Shown: piece by piece, positions 15,146-20,228 of the stretch
Layout of the letters: each line of letters starts with the position of its first letter
Position numbering within the stretch: position 1 is the stretch's first letter
Source of the DNA: Candidatus Multivorans sp.
Lineage (GTDB): Bacteria > Acidobacteriota > Thermoanaerobaculia > Multivoradales > Multivoraceae
DNA: 64,000 nt
Assembly (NCBI GenBank): GCA_965224025.1
Contig: OZ245033.1
Location: forward strand, 2,208,001 to 2,272,000
Direction: 5' to 3'
Notes under the pieces: model-generated
The model's input: the letters and a program-made list of their open reading frames with translations, nothing else
Told to the model about the DNA's origin: nothing
Databases searched by the model: none
Translations under genes and position numbers: made by a program

Positions 15146-15884
15146 AGCGGCTGCTTGTAGCCGCTGTTTCGCTTCTTGGCTTCACGGCGGTGTCGGAAGC
15201 ACAGACCGGATGCGTTGTCCCGACAACCGCACATCTTCGAGCGGTTGACATCCTCCCCAACACGATCTTCGTTGACTCCGAGACCAGCACGGTAGATTCA
15301 GAGGACATCGACGAGGGCTTGGCACTGTGGACCGCCGAATGTACGGATCCCGGTCAACTGCCGGCCATTGAGAGGACATCGGCATCGGCCGATAGCGAGA
15401 CTTGGTCTGTAGTCACGGACACCTACGAAGAGCTTGGTGTAGCCCCGATTGATCCGTTGACGGGTCGGAAGAGGTGTGGTCTTACGCGCTAATCCTCTAC
15501 GGGCCTGAACAAGGTCATGATTTTCTCCGACCGACCGGACACATGTCCCCCGATCGAGAGCACGCTCGCGCACGAGTTCGGTCATGTGTTCCGCTTGGGT
15601 CACCCGACAAGCCAGGAATGTACGTCGCCGACCGATCCGAACGACAAACCGTCGATCATGTCGTATAGCTCTGGCAGAACAGTAAGCGATCAGACTTGCG
15701 ACGACACGAAGCGAGCGTTGGATCGCACAGTCAAGCCACTGCCGTCGGGCGGCGGCGGTGGCGGCGGTGGTGGCGGCGGTGGTGGTGGCGGCGGCGGCGG
15801 CGGCGACCTGGAGCGGGACCGCTGCACGGACTTCCCCAACACTCCGGGGTGCCCTGGTTACCCCAACTGCGAGCTGAATCCGAA
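15142..15884 (+). pseudogene. N-terminal part of a secreted metzincin-like zinc protease (in-frame TAA at 15490-15492; split by IS)
   Basis: Signal peptide MKRLLVAAVSLLGF; ORFs 15127 and 15517 share one frame across a single TAA; HEFGHVFRLGH, Met-turn SIMSY, poly-Gly linker. Confidence 0.8.
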
Positions 15885-15902
15885 GGGGATTATATATTAG
15901 GC

Positions 15903-15931
15903 TTGACACGGGCGCTGATTTCCCGTAGTGT
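15903..15931 (+). promoter_or_regulatory. Candidate transposase promoter overlapping IRL
   Basis: TTGACA-N17-TAGTGT, 28 nt before the transposase ATG. Confidence 0.65.
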
Positions 15932-15959
15932 CTAGGGACACTGGACGGGAGATGAAACG

Positions 15960-16946
15960 ATGAAGCACAAGGCACCCGGCAAGGCTTACCGCAAGGGACT
16001 GACGTTCGTGCAACTGGCGCGGATGTTCCCCGATGAAGCAGCCGCGCGAGACTGGTTCGAGACGTACCTTTGGCCCGATGGAGTGAAGTGGTGCCCGAAC
16101 TGCGGCGGCGACAACACGCACGCATGCAAGCACAAGCAGATGCCGTACCGCTGCCGCGACTGCAAGCGGTACTTCAGCGTCAAGACCGGCACGCTCATGG
16201 CTGGTTCGCCGTTGCCTCTGTTGACGTGGCTCTACGCGATCTACCTCGAACTCACATCGCTCAAGGGCGTATCGAGCATGAAACTGCACCGTGACCTAGG
16301 CGTCACTCAGAAGACCGCTTGGCACATGCTCCAGCGCATCCGCGAAGCGTTCGCCGCCGAAGGGCCGGAAGTCCGGTTCGACGGTCCCGCCGAAGTGGAC
16401 GAGACGTACTTCGGCGGTCTGCGGAAGAACATGCCGAAGTGGAAGCGTGCGGAGCTTGAAGGTCGCGGCACGGTCGGCAAGACCGCCGTGGTGGGCATCA
16501 AGGACCGCGAGACCAAGAAGGTCGCGGCGAAGGTGGTCCGCTCCACCGACGGCGAGACCCTACAGGCGTTCGTGCGCGAGCACGTCGAACCCGGCGCGAT
16601 GGTGTACAGCGACGATACCGGGGCGTACAGCGGTCTGACCGAGTACGAGCGTGGCACGGTGAAGCACTCGGTCGGCGAGTACGTGGACGGCAAGGTCCAC
16701 ACGAACTCGATCGAGAGCTTCTGGTCGATGCTCAAGCGGGCGCACAAGGGTGTGTTCCACAAGATCAGTCCGAAGCACCTGCAACGCTACGTCGATGAGT
16801 TCGCGGGTCGGCAGAACATCCGCGAGTACGACACGCTGGCGCAGATGGTCGCCGTCACGGAGGGACTCGCGGGCAAGCGGCTCCGCTATCGTGACCTGAT
16901 CGCCGACAACGGCCTGCCGTCGGGCGCGCGCGAGGCCGCCGCATGA
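15960..16946 (+). CDS. IS1595-family (ISXO2-like) DDE transposase
   Basis: Zn ribbon CPNC...CRDC, EVDETYFGG, YSDD, HTNSIESFWSMLKR, HLQRYVDEF. Confidence 0.95.
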   Translation: MKHKAPGKAYRKGLTFVQLARMFPDEAAARDWFETYLWPDGVKWCPNCGGDNTHACKHKQMPYRCRDCKRYFSVKTGTLMAGSPLPLLTWLYAIYLELTSLKGVSSMKLHRDLGVTQKTAWHMLQRIREAFAAEGPEVRFDGPAEVDETYFGGLRKNMPKWKRAELEGRGTVGKTAVVGIKDRETKKVAAKVVRSTDGETLQAFVREHVEPGAMVYSDDTGAYSGLTEYERGTVKHSVGEYVDGKVHTNSIESFWSMLKRAHKGVFHKISPKHLQRYVDEFAGRQNIREYDTLAQMVAVTEGLAGKRLRYRDLIADNGLPSGAREAAA

Positions 16947-18389
16947 CCATCCTCGGTTCGTTCAGTCTGGTTCCAAACAGCCTCTACTACGGCGACTGCC
17001 TCGAAGTCATGGGCGGTTGGCCAGCCGAGTCGGTGGATCTGATCTACCTCGATCCGCCGTTCAACTCGAAGGCGGACTACAACCAGTTGTTCGGCACCGA
17101 GAACGGCGTGCCGGCCCAAGTTCGGGCGTTCACCGACACATGGACATGGAACGACTCGGCGGCCGAGCGGTACGACCGTTTCAGCCGTGCAGTCGCGCAT
17201 CCCGCGCACAAGGCGGTAGTCGGCCTGCACATGGCGCTAGGTCCATCGGGGATGCTCGCGTACCTCACCTACATGGCCGAGCGGCTCGCGGAGTGCAAGC
17301 GCCTGCTCAAGCCGACCGGCTCCATCTACCTGCACTGTGACCACACGGCGGGCGCGTACCTGAAGATGCTCATGGACGCGATCTTCGGAGCGAACAATCG
17401 CCGAAGCGAACTCCACTGGTACTACTACAACAAGATGCACGACAGCCGGAAGAAGCTGTTTGCTGCCGCCACGGACACAATCTTCTTCTATGTCAAGGAT
17501 GTGGACTCCGGTTTTTCGTTTGAACAACTTCAAGAACGCCGCGAAAAGCCCGTCAAGCAGCTTGTACGAGCCAAAGTCAACGGCCGCATGGTCAACAAGC
17601 GAGACGAAGACGGTCGGCTGATGTACCAGACCAAGACACATAGAACCATTGACAATGTGTGGCGGATACCCTGTTTGCAACCAGCATCGAGGGAGAGATT
17701 AGGCTGTCCAACACAGAAGCCCCGTGCGCTGTTGGATCGCATCATCAAGGCGTCTTCTAGGGAAGGTGACTTGGTGCTTGACCCGTTCTGCGGTTGTGGC
17801 ACGACGATAGACGCGGCGAATCGACTGCAACGGCAGTGGGTCGGCATCGACCTTTCACCGTTCGCCACTCGCCTTGTGCGTGACCGCAGGCTCAAGGATG
17901 CGAGTATCCAGATCTTCGGTATCCCGACAGATGTTGAAGGCGCACGGCTCCTGCTACGCAACAACCCGTTCGACTTCGAGGCGTGGATCGTTACGTCGGT
18001 GGACGGGCTGGCGGCGAACGAGGTCCAGGTAGGCGACGGCGGCATCGACGGGCGCGGCAGGATGTTCACCGTGCCGGACGATGAAACAGGCTTGGTGCTC
18101 GCTCAGGTGAAGGGGGGGGTACACCGCATCGGCGCTGCGGGACTTCGAGGGCACGATGGGCCGCGAGAACGCCACGGCGGGCATCTTCGTCACCTTGAAG
18201 CGCGTCACAACGTCCAGTGCCCGCGCGGCTGCCAAGGCGATGGGCGAGTACCGCGTAGGCGCGACGCGCTACCCTCGGCTCCAGTTCTGGTCCGCAGAGG
18301 AGTATCTGAGGGGCGTCCGTCCTCACCTACCCGCGATGGCCGACCCGTACACCGGCAAAGCAGTTCAGACCGACATGTTCACCGGATAG
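16943..18389 (+). CDS. Beta-class N6/N4 DNA methyltransferase fused to a C-terminal Mrr-like endonuclease domain; frameshift in G8 run 18112-18119
   Basis: DLIYLDPPF, PTQKP, VLDPFCGCGTT, DGGIDG...QVKGG; deleting one G joins ...KGG to YTASALRDFEGTMGRE (ORF 18156-18389). Confidence 0.85.
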
Positions 18390-18402
18390 CAGGGAGGAAG
18401 CG

Positions 18403-18585
18403 TTGCCCAAGAAGCCGAAGCGCCACACGGAACACAAGAAGGTGTACAAAGCCGAGTACGGCGGCGCTACGCCCGCGCAGGTCACGCTTGCGCTTCTACG
18501 CTACCGTCCAAACGCACCCGAAGCCGTCACGAAGCGTTTGCCACCGCAGGTTCAAGCCGACCCCGCTATCAAGTCTAGTGTATAA
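18403..18585 (+). CDS. Small basic hypothetical protein ending inside IRR
   Basis: GGAGG SD before TTG; 60 aa. Confidence 0.4.
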   Translation: MPKKPKRHTEHKKVYKAEYGGATPAQVTLALLRYRPNAPEAVTKRLPPQVQADPAIKSSV

Positions 18586-18590
18586 TCCCC

Positions 18591-20228
18591 AATCCGAAGC
18601 TGCCCGGGTGCCCGGACGTGACGTACGGGCCCGAGTGCTTCGGGAAGTGGGAAGACAAGAACGGCAACGGAGAGATCGACCAGGGAGAGTGCAACCTCTT
18701 CGCGTTCTCGGGCACTCCGGGATCGGGGAGCGTGACGACGACCCGAACGGGGGTGTCACAGAGCCAGAGCTACGTAGTCGGGCTCCGCGCCCGGTCCACG
18801 GTCACCGTCTCGCTGACCGGGATGAGCCGGGACTTCGATTGTCGCGGCAGAGCGGGCAGCAGCCTCGACGGCAGTGGAGGCACGCCTGCGCCGACTCGAA
18901 GCGTCTCGGGCTCCTGGCGGTGCTCAGACCGTCGGGGCGCCGCTGACGATTCATGGAGCGGCTCGCTCGACGCCGGAACCCACACCCTCACGGTCTCGCC
19001 ATACGGCGGCCGCACGGCAGGCGGCTACACGCTGTCGGTGGCGATCGTGGAGAGCCTGATACCGGAGCCTCCGCCGCTTTCGCTGCCGGCTGTCTCCAAC
19101 CTCCAGTCGTCGTCGGGCGGCTCCTTGGACACGGTGCTCCCCGCTGCGACGGGAGGGACGACACCGTACGTCTACAGCGTCTCGGGGCTGCCGTCGGGGA
19201 TCACGTTCGCCGCGTCGACCCGGCGGGCGAGCGGGACGCTTCCGGCCGTCACGACGGATACGGACTACACGATCACCTATACGGTCACGGACAGCACGGG
19301 CGGAGCCAGCGTGACGTTCGTTGTTGCCGTCGCTGCGCCGACGGCGCCGTCGGCGCCGGTGTTGAGCGGTTCGGTTTCGGGGCGGACGCAGACCCTGACC
19401 TGGATCGCACCTGGCGGCGGCGGGATCACGCGCTATCAGTTGCAGACCAGGGCATCGGCGGCCCACGCATGGCGCTTCTCGGGGACTGGCGCTCCTTCGC
19501 CGTCGTCGAACATCGGTGCGAGCGTGAGGTCGTGGAGCCTGCTGACGCCCTGGACGCTGGTTCGTCAGTATCAGGTGCGGGCGACGAACGGAGTTGGAGA
19601 CGGCGCGTGGTCCAACGTCGTCGAACTGACGACGCCGCCGGCTCCGCCGCCACCGCTTTCCGTGCCGGCGATCCCGAACTTCCGGCTACCGTCAGGCGGC
19701 TCGGTGAACACGGTGTTCCCGGCCGCTACGGGAGGTACGGCGCCCTACTCGTACAGCGTCTCGGGGCTGCCGCCGGGGATCACGTTCGCGGCCTCGACGC
19801 GGCGAGCGAGCGGGACGCTTCCGACCGTGACGACCGACACGGACTACGCGATCACCTACACGGCCATGGACAGCGCAAGCGGGTCGTCCTCCGTGACCTT
19901 CACCGCTACCGTCACGGCGCCGGCGAAGCCGGCCGCGATGTCGTTGACCGGGAGCGTTGTTCGACAGACGCAGAGCCTTAGCTGGAGCCCGCCCACATCG
20001 TCGATCCCGATCACGAAGTACGAGCTACAGCTCCGGAACTCGGCGAACCATGGGTGGAGGCATACGACCGCGGGTTCGCCGTCGCCGTCGTCCGCGATTG
20101 CCGCCACGGCGACCGGATGGAGCGTGACCGGTCCGGCCGGCCTTGTCCGGCACTACCGGATCAGGGCATGGAACGCCAGCGGCGCGGGAGGATGGTCGAG
20201 CATCGTCATCCTGGAGTCGGATTCCTGA
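18591..20228 (+). pseudogene. C-terminal part of the IS-split secreted protein: Cys-rich linker, PPC-like domain, two Ig-like/FN3 pairs
   Basis: Removing the IS gives in-frame ...CELNPKLPGCPDVTYGPEC...; two GLPxGITFAASTRRASGTLP Ig-like units and two FN3-like W...Y...RAxN..G.G.WS units. Confidence 0.8.
19069..20220 (+). repeat. Intragenic tandem duplication of an Ig-like + FN3 module (about 580 bp unit; ends approximate)
   Basis: Near-identical DNA, e.g. TACAGCGTCTCGGGGCTGCCG...GGGATCACGTTCGC near 19172 and 19752. Confidence 0.8.

What the first reader, a model, noticed from the sequence alone, without database searches (positions are those of the whole stretch)
15885..18590. IS1595 transporter element carrying a methyltransferase-endonuclease fusion
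Seen: the IRs and a perfect 8-bp TSD enclose the transposase, an ATGA-coupled MTase/Mrr-like gene and a small ORF, all behind one TTGACA-N17-TAGTGT promoter. Known: IS1595-family members can carry passenger genes and make 8-bp TSDs. Inference: a minimal self-mobile methylation/restriction unit that could alter the host methylome, defend against phage or stabilise itself. The intact TSD suggests recent movement.
Basis: partly seen in the sequence, partly recalled or inferred. Interest (0 to 1): 0.7.

Follow-up and report, generated by a model that had tools for sequence, protein, structure and literature searches.

The report
Jumping gene carrying broken methylase-nuclease
This is a real 2.7-kb insertion sequence of the IS1595 family, present four times in the genome, that carries a DNA-methylase gene fused to a DNA-cutting domain; the cutting half is knocked out of frame here, and the element is one more example of a kind of mobile element that is already described.

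Summary
Window 15885-18590 is a real 2,706-bp IS1595-family transporter IS. It has 22-nt inverted repeats (19/22) and a perfect 8-bp duplication (AATCCGAA), and it splits a gene that reads as one 673-codon frame once the element is removed in silico. The cargo is a beta-class N6/N4 DNA methyltransferase with a C-terminal Mrr-like PD-(D/E)xK nuclease domain. In all four copies, and in contigs from a second sample, a G8 run (18112-18119) is 2 nt short of the intact orthologue. That shifts the frame just after the catalytic QVK, so this element is at best methylase-only. Three sister elements in the same genome carry methylase-Mrr (4 identical intact copies) or methylase-HNH cargo, with swapped recognition modules. 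The small ORF is IS backbone, not cargo. The fusion is mostly a stand-alone gene on prophages and plasmids (transposase beside 2 of 47 metagenome and 2 of 80 viral loci). It is therefore a true passenger. This scan noted the same elements before on other DNA of this genome and in other genomes. Verdict: new member of a known kind, moderate interest.

The parts
15877..15884 (.). left copy of the 8-bp target-site duplication AATCCGAA
   Evidence: identical to 18591-18598
15885..15906 (+). left terminal inverted repeat (GGGGATTATATATTAGGCTTGA)
   Evidence: 22 nt, 19/22 with the right arm; identical in all 4 copies
15903..15931 (+). candidate promoter: TTGACA (overlaps the end of the repeat), 17 nt, TAGTGT
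   Evidence: letters present. Not listed by the consensus scan. TTGACA sits at the same place in the terminal repeats of relatives L013, L016, L017, L025, L028.
15960..16946 (+). IS1595-family transposase, 328 aa, intact in all 4 copies
   Evidence: PF12762 1e-39, PF12760 3e-07; NF033547 2.7e-55
16943..18119 (+). cargo gene, in-frame part: beta-class N6/N4 DNA methyltransferase plus the first half of the Mrr-like nuclease domain (GDGGIDG ... QVK). Its start overlaps the transposase stop (ATGA).
   Evidence: (PF01555 1.1e-48)
17424..17707 (+). target-recognition block of the methylase. GC is 0.51 against 0.62-0.64 for the rest of the gene and 0.676 for the genome. It has no match in the closest elements and resembles protein P0120.
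18112..18119 (+). G8 run, 2 nt short of the intact reading (orthologues read AAGGGCGGTGGATAC/TTC = K-G-G-G-Y/F); this is the frameshift point
   Evidence: Same length in 4 of 4 copies and in contigs of two samples from two studies.
18120..18389 (+). rest of the Mrr-like nuclease domain, in the other frame
   Evidence: Mrr_cat 20.8 bits, cut-off 21. It aligns to the intact orthologue L045 and to family B.
18403..18585 (+). small ORF (60 codons, TTG start after GGAGG). It belongs to the IS backbone and its core motif is Y-x-G-A-T-P-x-x-V-x-x-A-L-L.
   Evidence: No Pfam, NCBIfam or PADLOC hit.
18569..18590 (-). right terminal inverted repeat
18591..18598 (.). right copy of the target-site duplication
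15493..15884 (+). 5' part of the interrupted host gene (zinc-metallopeptidase motif HEFGH, poly-Gly linker)
18599..20228 (+). 3' part of the interrupted host gene (He_PIG and fn3 repeats)

Best explanation
This is a transporter insertion sequence of the IS1595 family; its ends look like the ISNwi1 type. Shown: the zinc-ribbon/DDE transposase gene, the 22-nt terminal repeats, the 8-bp target duplication and four near-identical copies, all of which include the cargo. Inferred: the transposase is made from a weak promoter whose -35 box lies inside the left repeat. It binds both repeats and inserts the whole 2,706 bp at staggered 8-bp cuts. The cargo is translationally coupled to the transposase by the ATGA overlap. 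Ancestrally the cargo is a single-chain enzyme: a beta-class amino-methyltransferase with an internal recognition block, tethered to a non-specific Mrr-like PD-(D/E)xK cleavage domain. That layout resembles the cleavage modules of MspJI/AspBHI, type ISP and FokI-type enzymes. The most likely ancestral working mode is a self-contained methylate-or-cut unit that rides on prophages, plasmids and, in this lineage, IS1595 elements. In this element a 2-nt deficit in a G run breaks the frame right after the catalytic QVK. The nuclease is therefore most likely dead, and the product is at best a methylase with a nonsense tail that differs at each insertion site. The element multiplied after that break, so the nuclease is not needed in cis for transposition. 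The element is a mosaic. Its ends, transposase and small ORF are closest to an element that carries methylase-HNH. Its methylase-Mrr is closest to another genome's element. Its recognition block is foreign and low in GC.
For: Anatomy. Copies and ends. Second sample with the same right boundary, other flanks and the same G8: (X3 records 17 and 24). Depth of element over flank is 4.3-5.2 in X1/X2. The host gene is restored in silico. Frameshift: the intact orthologue L045 and family B read KGGG(Y/F) where A has G8. Nuclease fold of the C-terminal domain (model pLDDT 86.9): AspBHI Z 9.5, LlaBIII Z 9.0, MspJI Z 8.8, AF1548 Z 8.4, FokI Z 7.5; the Foldseek top rows are MspJI and AspBHI at E 7e-3. 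D-x-G-x-D-G and V-K-G are invariant in 50 sequences. The methylase is beta-class: PF01555 hit, structural hits to EcoP15I Mod, CcrM, M.BceJIV, MboIIA and RsrI. It is a passenger and not a partner: an IS1595 transposase lies beside the fusion in 2 of 47 metagenome loci with at least 1 kb upstream and 2 of 80 viral loci. Neighbours are heterogeneous. An integrase is the nearest large ORF in 7 of 37 viral loci. The gene stands alone on two plasmids. Plain 1,245-bp relatives have target duplications. Sister elements: B has 4 identical copies with an intact 528-aa fusion; C has 3 copies and D has 1, both with methylase-HNH. Mosaic structure.
Against: No methylation, cleavage or transposition was measured. 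Logan contigs drop rare variants, so a minority of cells with G7 or G10 cannot be excluded. The Pfam Mrr_cat scores are just under the gathering cut-off (20.8 and 18.1 against 21). The Foldseek E-values for the nuclease domain are weak (7e-3). The promoter did not pass the consensus scan. Two of the four copies (A2, A4) lack matching duplications; I explain this by recombination between copies, but only one of the two expected flank pairs matches. The methylate-or-cut mode is inferred from architecture. No member of this fusion family was found with a solved structure or a tested function. Its abundance on viral contigs fits phage self-protection equally well.
Confidence: 0.72

Rival explanations
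1. The G8 run is a working switch or recoding site and not a dead end. Either slipped-strand changes (G8 to G7 or G10) turn the nuclease half on in a subpopulation, as in phase-variable mod genes. Or ribosomes or RNA polymerase slip by +1 on GGG-GGG-GTA to read TAC and make some full-length enzyme.
For: The homopolymer lies exactly at the domain's core. The 0-frame codon after the run, GTA, is the least used Val codon (7.1 per 1000, against GTC 39.9), which is the kind of context that favours +1 slippage (established knowledge of prfB and Ty1, recalled). Earlier notes of this scan report variable homopolymers at the start of methylase-HNH cargo of related elements in other genomes (not checked here).
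Against: The run is G8 in 4 of 4 copies and in contigs from two samples of two studies, with 0 gaps. The only orthologue found (L045) and family B have no run at this place (AAGGGCGGTGGA), so the site is not conserved as a recoding signal. Copy A4 has a second frameshift (1-nt insertion at element position 1540), which looks like decay.
Confidence: 0.12
2. The fusion family is not a restriction-like unit. It is a protective or epigenetic methylase of mobile DNA (anti-restriction, as for many phage methylases), and its nuclease-like domain serves DNA binding or another role. On this reading, losing that domain in element A matters little.
For: At least 430 viral stretches encode relatives. 73 of the 80 kept viral loci have the C-terminal domain. 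The gene often sits next to integrases (7 of 37) and stands alone on plasmids among stability genes. No partner gene is conserved. Element A multiplied with the domain broken.
Against: The catalytic D...(Q/S)-x-K residues are invariant or nearly so over 50 diverse sequences, and 65 of 80 viral loci keep both motifs; this argues for a working nuclease. The nuclease module is exchanged for another nuclease (HNH) in sister elements and is not lost.
Confidence: 0.1
3. The methylase-nuclease is a transposition accessory, for instance a TnsA-like second-strand nuclease or a methyl mark on the ends, and not a passenger.
For: The gene is translationally coupled to the transposase in A, B and D. A methylase-nuclease is found repeatedly next to this transposase clade in several phyla: 10 of 22 loci, and 10 of 27 loci in the genus and relatives sample.
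Against: Plain relatives transpose without it (1,245 bp, target duplications). L028 has no methylase match in a 2,704-bp element with a matching duplication, so it carries other cargo. In L016 and L025-27 the methylase is on the opposite strand. The fusion mostly lacks a transposase neighbour. A spread with the nuclease broken, although the intact family-B protein could act in trans.
Confidence: 0.03
4. The frameshift is a homopolymer miscount of the assembly, and the gene is really intact.
For: Homopolymers are error-prone in long-read assemblies. All four copies would carry the same systematic error.
Against: Contigs built separately from runs of a second sample and study (X3, X4) cover 17417-18591 and 17919-18273 with 0 gaps. 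Restoring the frame needs -1 or +2, and the orthologous reading needs +2, which is an unusual miscount.
Confidence: 0.03

Closest known systems
Transporter ISs (tIS) of the IS1595 family, ISNwi1-type group with passenger genes (Siguier, Gagnevin & Chandler 2009, Res Microbiol 160:232; that paper was not seen, and its subgroup details are recalled)
   Same: IS1595-type zinc-ribbon/DDE transposase, short terminal repeats beginning GGGGATTAT, 8-bp duplication, and extra genes carried inside the repeats. The tIS concept is stated in a review passage (PMC11891212). Furuta et al. 2010 cite the 2009 paper for R-M systems and solitary M genes flanked by IS elements (PMC2853133 passage).
   Different: The closest annotated transposases in plasmid records are at most 42% identical and bear no element name. 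The cargo is a methylase fused to a nuclease domain, with Mrr and HNH versions and swapped recognition blocks on one backbone. Whether such fusions are listed in ISfinder could not be checked.
Single-chain restriction-modification enzymes (type IIG/IIC such as MmeI and BpuSI; type ISP LlaGI/LlaBIII)
   Same: Recognition-plus-methylation module and a non-specific PD-(D/E)xK cleavage module in one polypeptide. The nuclease domain model matches the LlaBIII nuclease domain (Z 9.0) and BpuSI (Z 4.5).
   Different: Those enzymes have an N-terminal nuclease and, as I recall, a gamma-class methylase; type ISP enzymes add a helicase-like motor. Here the methylase is beta-class (PF01555, closest folds type III Mod and CcrM), the nuclease is C-terminal and there is no motor. 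No activity is known, and the window's copy is frameshifted.
Mobile forms of R-M systems flanked by inverted repeats with short target duplications (Furuta, Abe & Kobayashi 2010, PMC2853133; passages read)
   Same: R-M or M genes inside inverted repeats with an 8-bp target duplication; R-M genes treated as mobile, selfish units.
   Different: Those units mostly lacked a transposase of their own. This one is autonomous and multi-copy.
Phase-variable DNA methyltransferases (phasevarions; type III mod genes with homopolymer or tetranucleotide repeats; recalled)
   Same: A beta-class methylase whose closest solved folds include type III Mod subunits, with a homopolymer run inside the reading frame.
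   Different: No length variation was seen. The run is absent from the orthologues. It lies in the nuclease domain, not at the 5' end of the methylase.

Membership tests
IS1595 family insertion sequence | Transposase with a DDE_Tnp_IS1595 catalytic domain and an N-terminal zinc ribbon | tested here: met
   PF12762 1e-39 (136.5 bits, cut-off 27) and PF12760 3.1e-07 (30.7 bits, cut-off 25.4). NF033547 2.7e-55.
IS1595 family insertion sequence | Short terminal inverted repeats flanked by an 8-bp target-site duplication | tested here: met
   22-nt repeats, 19/22. AATCCGAA on both sides. Copy A3 has ATCCGGAG on both sides. All 4 family-B copies and D1 have perfect 8-bp duplications.
IS1595 family insertion sequence | Moves as a unit: several copies with the same ends in different contexts | tested here: met
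   4 copies of 2,706-2,707 bp. Same right boundary with other flanks in a second sample.
ISNwi1-type subgroup (ISfinder; the definition is recalled, not read) | Repeat tip ggnnatTAT; DDEK catalytic tetrad with a following E-x3-R | tested here: inconclusive
   The tip is GGGGATTAT. The transposase reads VDETY, YSDDT, NSIESFWSMLK and EFAGR, which fits my recollection of the subgroup signature. The published definition could not be consulted (papers not held).
Transporter IS (tIS) | Carries genes that are not needed for transposition | tested here: met
   Plain 1,245-bp relatives with duplications. The cargo family is mostly found without a transposase (2 of 47; 2 of 80). The element spread with the cargo broken. 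This is indirect; no transposition assay was done.
Beta-class N6-adenine/N4-cytosine DNA methyltransferase | PF01555 domain with the DPPF/Y motif ahead of the SAM-binding FxGxG motif and a recognition block between them | tested here: met
   PF01555 1.1e-48. DPPFNS comes first and DPFCGCGTT later in the translation. PDB sequence hits to CcrM, MboIIA and RsrI. Fold hits to EcoP15I Mod and CcrM.
Beta-class N6-adenine/N4-cytosine DNA methyltransferase | Methylates DNA at a defined sequence | not testable with these tools
   No kinetic or methylome data were available.
Mrr-like PD-(D/E)xK nuclease domain | Pfam Mrr_cat (PF04471) above the gathering score | tested here: inconclusive
   20.8 bits for the window's C-terminal piece and 18.1 bits for family B, against a cut-off of 21. 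Precomputed PF04471 is listed for 24 of the 120 close homologues shown.
Mrr-like PD-(D/E)xK nuclease domain | Restriction-endonuclease-like fold with a conserved D...(E/Q/S)-x-K | tested here: met
   Domain model pLDDT 86.9. AspBHI Z 9.5 (rmsd 3.4, 123 aligned), LlaBIII Z 9.0, MspJI Z 8.8. D42, G44, D46, G47, K68 and G70 are invariant in 50 sequences. The model is of the intact family-B protein, not of the window's copy.
Mrr-like PD-(D/E)xK nuclease domain | Domain encoded intact in this element | tested here: not met
   Frameshift at G8, directly after QVK, in 4 of 4 copies.
Single-chain R-M enzyme (type IIG/IIC) | Methylase and endonuclease in one polypeptide | tested here: not met
   Met for family B (528 aa) and the orthologue L045. 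Not met for the window's element as it stands.
Single-chain R-M enzyme (type IIG/IIC) | Cleaves unmodified DNA and is blocked by its own methylation | not testable with these tools
   Needs biochemistry.
Phase-variable methyltransferase (phasevarion) | Simple repeat in the reading frame whose length varies between cells, copies or strains | tested here: not met
   A repeat is present (G8), but the length is the same in 4 copies and in two samples. Limit: contigs hide rare variants.

The most novel reading that the evidence does not exclude
IS1595-type elements of marine symbionts act as a modular shuttle for single-chain methylate-or-cut enzymes. One backbone (ends, transposase, a conserved small regulator-like ORF) exchanges nuclease modules (Mrr or HNH) and recognition blocks by recombination between copies. 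That gives the host a self-spreading, quickly re-programmable set of DNA specificities. In element A the G8 run would be a slippage or +1-recoding site that doses the toxic nuclease half, not a dead mutation.
Probability: 0.12. Interest if true: 0.7.

Novelty: new member of a known kind. Interest (0 to 1): 0.38.

Why it matters
It is a clean, multi-copy example of a restriction-modification-type gene riding inside an autonomous insertion sequence. The genome holds twelve such elements of four sub-families. Seven of them have intact cargo: the four B copies and the three C copies. Nuclease and recognition modules are visibly swapped between them. That makes the genome a natural series for asking how DNA-methylation specificities spread and change inside a cell line, and whether such cargo defends, stabilises or merely hitch-hikes. 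For annotation, the long 667-codon ORF called across the G8 run is an artefact of a frameshift and runs out of the element. The copies also mark rearrangement breakpoints in the chromosome.

Tried and rejected
- Promoter and terminator consensus scan of 15700-18800: 0 sites of either kind.
- Small ORF: no Pfam hit even at E up to 5, no NCBIfam or PADLOC hit, and no homologue by the word-indexed protein search (only lengths 33-105 aa were searched).
- I planned a profile comparison of the small ORF with the transposase N-terminus.
- RNA evidence: no RNA holder was listed for the stretch.
- Empty site in relatives: the right flank matches a multi-copy He_PIG/fn3 gene family in 29 of 41 other genomes of the genus. 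No clear orthologous empty site could be named, so the in-silico excision stands in its place.
- No joint across 15884/18591 was among the 15 joints shown by read laying, and 87 more were not shown. Nothing can be said about an empty allele.
- The Foldseek search with the whole 528-aa model returned only methylases, so the nuclease domain had to be folded alone.
- Literature: the FEMS 2014 IS review (DOI, and PMC7190074) is not held. Siguier 2009 was not seen. PMC7371123, PMC9296519 and PMC6563490 were searched for passages and held nothing on IS1595 cargo.
- PADLOC gave only generic type II/III methylase models and no defence-system name.
- Coordinate slip: my first notebook entry gives the G run as 18113-18120; the correct place is 18112-18119.
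Full report
1. WHAT IS THERE

Window 15885-18590 is bounded by the longest inverted repeat of the region: 15885-15906 against 18569-18590, 22 nt, 19 of 22 complementary. The 8-mer AATCCGAA lies directly outside both arms, at 15877-15884 and 18591-18598.

Inside the repeats, all on the + strand:
- A 328-aa transposase at 15960-16946. It hits PF12762 at 1e-39 and PF12760 at 3e-07, and NCBIfam 'IS1595 family transposase' at 2.7e-55.
- A gene that starts at the ATG of an ATGA overlap (16943) and carries PF01555, 'DNA methylase N6_N4', at 1.1e-48.
- A 60-codon ORF at 18403-18585, behind a GGAGG.

The element splits a host gene. The 5' part has a zinc-peptidase motif and a poly-Gly linker. The 3' part has He_PIG and fn3 repeats. 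Taking out the element and one repeat copy in silico gives one 673-codon frame, against 135 codons with the element in place.

2. COPIES

The window's genome (5.14 Mb, 3 contigs) holds four full-length copies. They differ by one 1-nt insertion (copy A4, element position 1540) and two substitutions. All four have the same two ends, so the methylase and the small ORF move with the transposase.

Copies A1 (the window) and A3 have perfect 8-bp duplications. A2 and A4 do not, but the left flank of A2 equals the right flank of A4 (ATTTGAAT). This is what recombination between two inverted copies leaves behind. The other pair of flanks does not match, so that history is only half explained.

Contigs of public runs give an element-to-flank depth ratio of 4.3 to 5.2 in the likely source sample (X1, X2). 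In a second sample from another study (X3, X4) the same element is present with different flanks and the same right boundary.

3. THE CARGO IS BROKEN

The frame that starts at 16943 does not stop inside the element. It runs to 18946, which is why ORF lists show a 667-codon gene. The cause is a G8 run at 18112-18119.

Two intact relatives read AAG GGC GGT GGA TAC/TTC (K-G-G-G-Y/F) at this place and then continue with the sequence that in the window lies in another frame (18120-18389). They are the orthologue in another genome of the genus (L045) and the sister family B in this genome.

Element A is therefore 2 nt short. The break falls directly after the catalytic Q-V-K. The run is G8 in 4 of 4 copies. 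It is also G8, with 0 gaps, in contigs of both samples (records 7, 15, 24, 31). A simple assembly miscount is therefore unlikely, and no length variation is seen. Contigs hide rare variants, so a minority of other lengths cannot be excluded.

4. WHAT THE CARGO IS

The N-terminal 345 or so residues are a beta-class amino-methyltransferase. DPPFNS comes first, then a variable recognition block, then DPFCGCGTT.
- Sequence matches in the PDB are CcrM, MboIIA, M.BceJIV, RsrI and type III Mod subunits.
- Fold matches of a model of the intact family-B protein (pLDDT 76.5) are EcoP15I Mod, a Mod-like methylase and CcrM.

For the C-terminal 159 residues, Pfam Mrr_cat scores just under its cut-off (20.8 and 18.1 bits against 21). 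I therefore folded the domain alone on a 50-sequence alignment (pLDDT 86.9).
- An all-against-representatives structure search gave AspBHI Z 9.5, type ISP LlaBIII nuclease domain Z 9.0, MspJI Z 8.8, AF1548 Z 8.4 and FokI Z 7.5. All 36 rows with Z of 5 or more were restriction-endonuclease-fold proteins.
- Foldseek put MspJI and AspBHI on top at a weak E of 7e-3.
- D-x-G-x-D-G and V-K-G are invariant over the 50 sequences.

So 'Mrr-like nuclease' holds for the family, and the residues argue that it is catalytically alive where intact. The matched domains are non-specific cleavage modules tethered to a specificity module. On that basis I infer a methylate-or-cut single-chain enzyme. This is inference from architecture. 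No tested or solved member of the fusion was found.

5. IS THE CARGO A PASSENGER?

The fusion family is very large. The protein search scored 8,000 of 8,000 candidates at E of 1e-10 or better (the candidate cap), and the 120 listed are 56% or more identical over about the full length.

| Sample of fusion loci | IS1595 transposase present |
|---|---|
| 47 of the 80 metagenome loci kept, those with at least 1 kb upstream | 2 |
| 80 viral-contig loci kept, of at least 430 matching stretches | 2 |

Other context points:
- 73 of the 80 viral loci have the nuclease domain.
- Neighbours in 18 metagenome loci share no partner gene.
- In 37 viral loci the nearest large ORF is an integrase in 7, and otherwise mostly of unknown function.
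- On two plasmids of cultured bacteria the gene stands alone.

Looking the other way, among 22 loci that encode relatives of the window's transposase in 12 reference genomes (Acidobacteriota, Gamma- and Alphaproteobacteria, by record titles):
- 10 have a methylase or HNH match beside the transposase and 12 do not.
- Two of the six near-identical transposase loci of one Bryobacterales genome (L017, L018) are plain 1,245-bp ISs with perfect duplications. A third (L019) has the same ends 4,193 bp apart around a 767-codon ORF.
- One element of 2,704 bp (L028) carries other cargo.
- Elements of 2,599, 2,880 and 2,863 bp carry methylases on either strand.

In the genus and relatives sample, 10 of 27 loci with a transposase match also had a methylase match within the short flanks held. 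The methylase-nuclease is thus a recurrent but dispensable passenger of this transposase clade.

6. SISTER ELEMENTS AND MOSAICISM

The same genome holds three sister families.

| Family | Copies and size | Cargo | Notes |
|---|---|---|---|
| B | 4 identical copies, 2,857 bp | Intact 528-aa methylase-Mrr, ATGA-coupled | All with perfect duplications |
| D | 1 copy, 2,588 bp | Methylase-HNH | The N-terminus is out of frame with the only start |
| C | 3 copies, about 5.0 kb | Methylase-HNH, plus a minus-strand M48-like lipoprotein peptidase and two small minus-strand genes | Flanks permuted among the three copies |

C1 differs from C2 and C3 only in the central recognition block of the methylase.

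Element A is itself a mosaic:
- Its left end with transposase (84% nt) and its small ORF with right end (80% nt) are closest to an element in genome G027 whose cargo is methylase-HNH.
- Its methylase-Mrr is closest (71-76% nt) to the element in G009.
- Its recognition block (17424-17707) matches neither, has GC 0.51 against 0.676 for the genome, and resembles protein P0120.
- A short stretch is 92% identical to family C.

7. THE SMALL ORF

Its core motif (K-A-E/D/N-Y-G/N-x-A-T-P-x-Q-V-x-x-x-L-L) recurs just inside the right end of elements with Mrr cargo and HNH cargo. It recurs on the opposite strand in the plain 1,245-bp IS and in the element with other cargo, across phyla. It therefore belongs to the IS backbone. 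No family or homologue was found by the libraries or by the word-indexed search. A role in regulating transposition is my guess only.

8. PROMOTER

TTGACA (15903-15908), 17 nt, TAGTGT (15926-15931) is present, but the scan lists nothing. TTGACA sits at the same position of the terminal repeats in five relatives, at both ends. It may be a -35 box, a transposase-binding element, or both.

9. COMPARISON WITH WHAT IS KNOWN

IS relatives that carry passenger genes (tIS), including IS1595-family members, are in print. This is stated in a review passage citing Siguier et al. 2009 and 2015 (PMC11891212). Furuta et al. 2010 cite the 2009 IS1595 paper among reports of R-M systems and solitary M genes flanked by IS elements, and describe R-M units inside inverted repeats with 8-bp duplications (PMC2853133 passages). 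I could not read Siguier 2009 or the 2014 review. The ISNwi1 subgroup signature that I quote (repeat tip ggnnatTAT, DDEK plus E-x3-R, sizes 1,750-4,750 bp with passengers) is recalled.

This scan has already described the same elements on other DNA of this genome (e1-3115936, e1-3115934) and related elements with candidate homopolymer switches in other genomes. My checks agree with the former. I found no length variation in this element.

10. VERDICT

This is a new member of a known kind. Interest is moderate, chiefly for the within-genome series of module-swapped methylase-nuclease cargoes.

Noticed in passing
G000:C1 909278-911983 (A2) and 2130591-2133297 (A4); C copies at 240863, 1567988 and 1968036: Flanking 8-mers are exchanged between copies. 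A2-left equals A4-right. In the 5-kb family C, C1-left equals C3-right, C1-right equals C2-left, and C3-left differs from C2-right by 1 nt. This suggests large inversions or rearrangements by recombination between copies, or else assembly joins at repeats.
   Followed up: partly
G000:C1 1308147-1311003 (B3): Copy B3 sits inside a copy of a 1.5-kb IS that is itself present in at least 14 copies. A 1.34-kb IS is also multi-copy. The genome is IS-rich.
   Followed up: no
G000:C1 887933-890520 (D1) and L013:5926-8524: In the methylase-HNH cargo the conserved N-terminal residues (IVP.RYGPQDWVRAIHTGDNL) are out of frame with the ATGA/GTGA-coupled start in both elements, and no ATG/GTG/TTG is in frame. 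A conserved GGAATTGTCCC could hide an ATT start or a frameshift site.
   Followed up: partly
G000:C1 1567988-1572992 (C2): A 5.0-kb relative carries, besides the transposase and methylase-HNH, a minus-strand 499-aa lipoprotein-like peptidase (HELAHN motif) and two small minus-strand genes upstream of the transposase. None of these was put through a family search.
   Followed up: no
window 18403-18585; L017:6827-7066(-); L028:6868-7347(-); L023:9523-9714: A small basic ORF with the motif Y-x-G-A-T-P-x-x-V/L-A-x-A-L-L recurs in this IS clade in either orientation and has no known family. To the eye it resembles the transposase's own N-terminus (G-L-T-F-V-Q-L-A-R-M-F). This was not tested.
   Followed up: partly
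target duplications listed: The insertion sites are AT-rich 8-mers in a 67.6% GC genome, and many contain TTCG/CGAA (AATCCGAA, TTTCGTTG, TTTCGGAT, TTCGTATA, TTTCGATT, TTTCGCAA). This may be a target preference.
   Followed up: no
window 15747-15807: A (GGC/GGT)n tract encodes a run of about 19 glycines in the interrupted host gene. Public contigs break there.
   Followed up: no
L156-L235 (IMG/VR contigs): The methylase-Mrr fusion family is common on viral contigs (at least 430 matching stretches). An integrase is the nearest large ORF in 7 of 37 loci sampled, which is the accessory-gene position of temperate phages.
   Followed up: partly
L019:5923-10115: The same 1.2-kb Bryobacterales IS ends enclose 4,193 bp with a 767-codon ORF of unknown kind and a matching 8-bp duplication. 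This is another passenger or a nested element.
   Followed up: no
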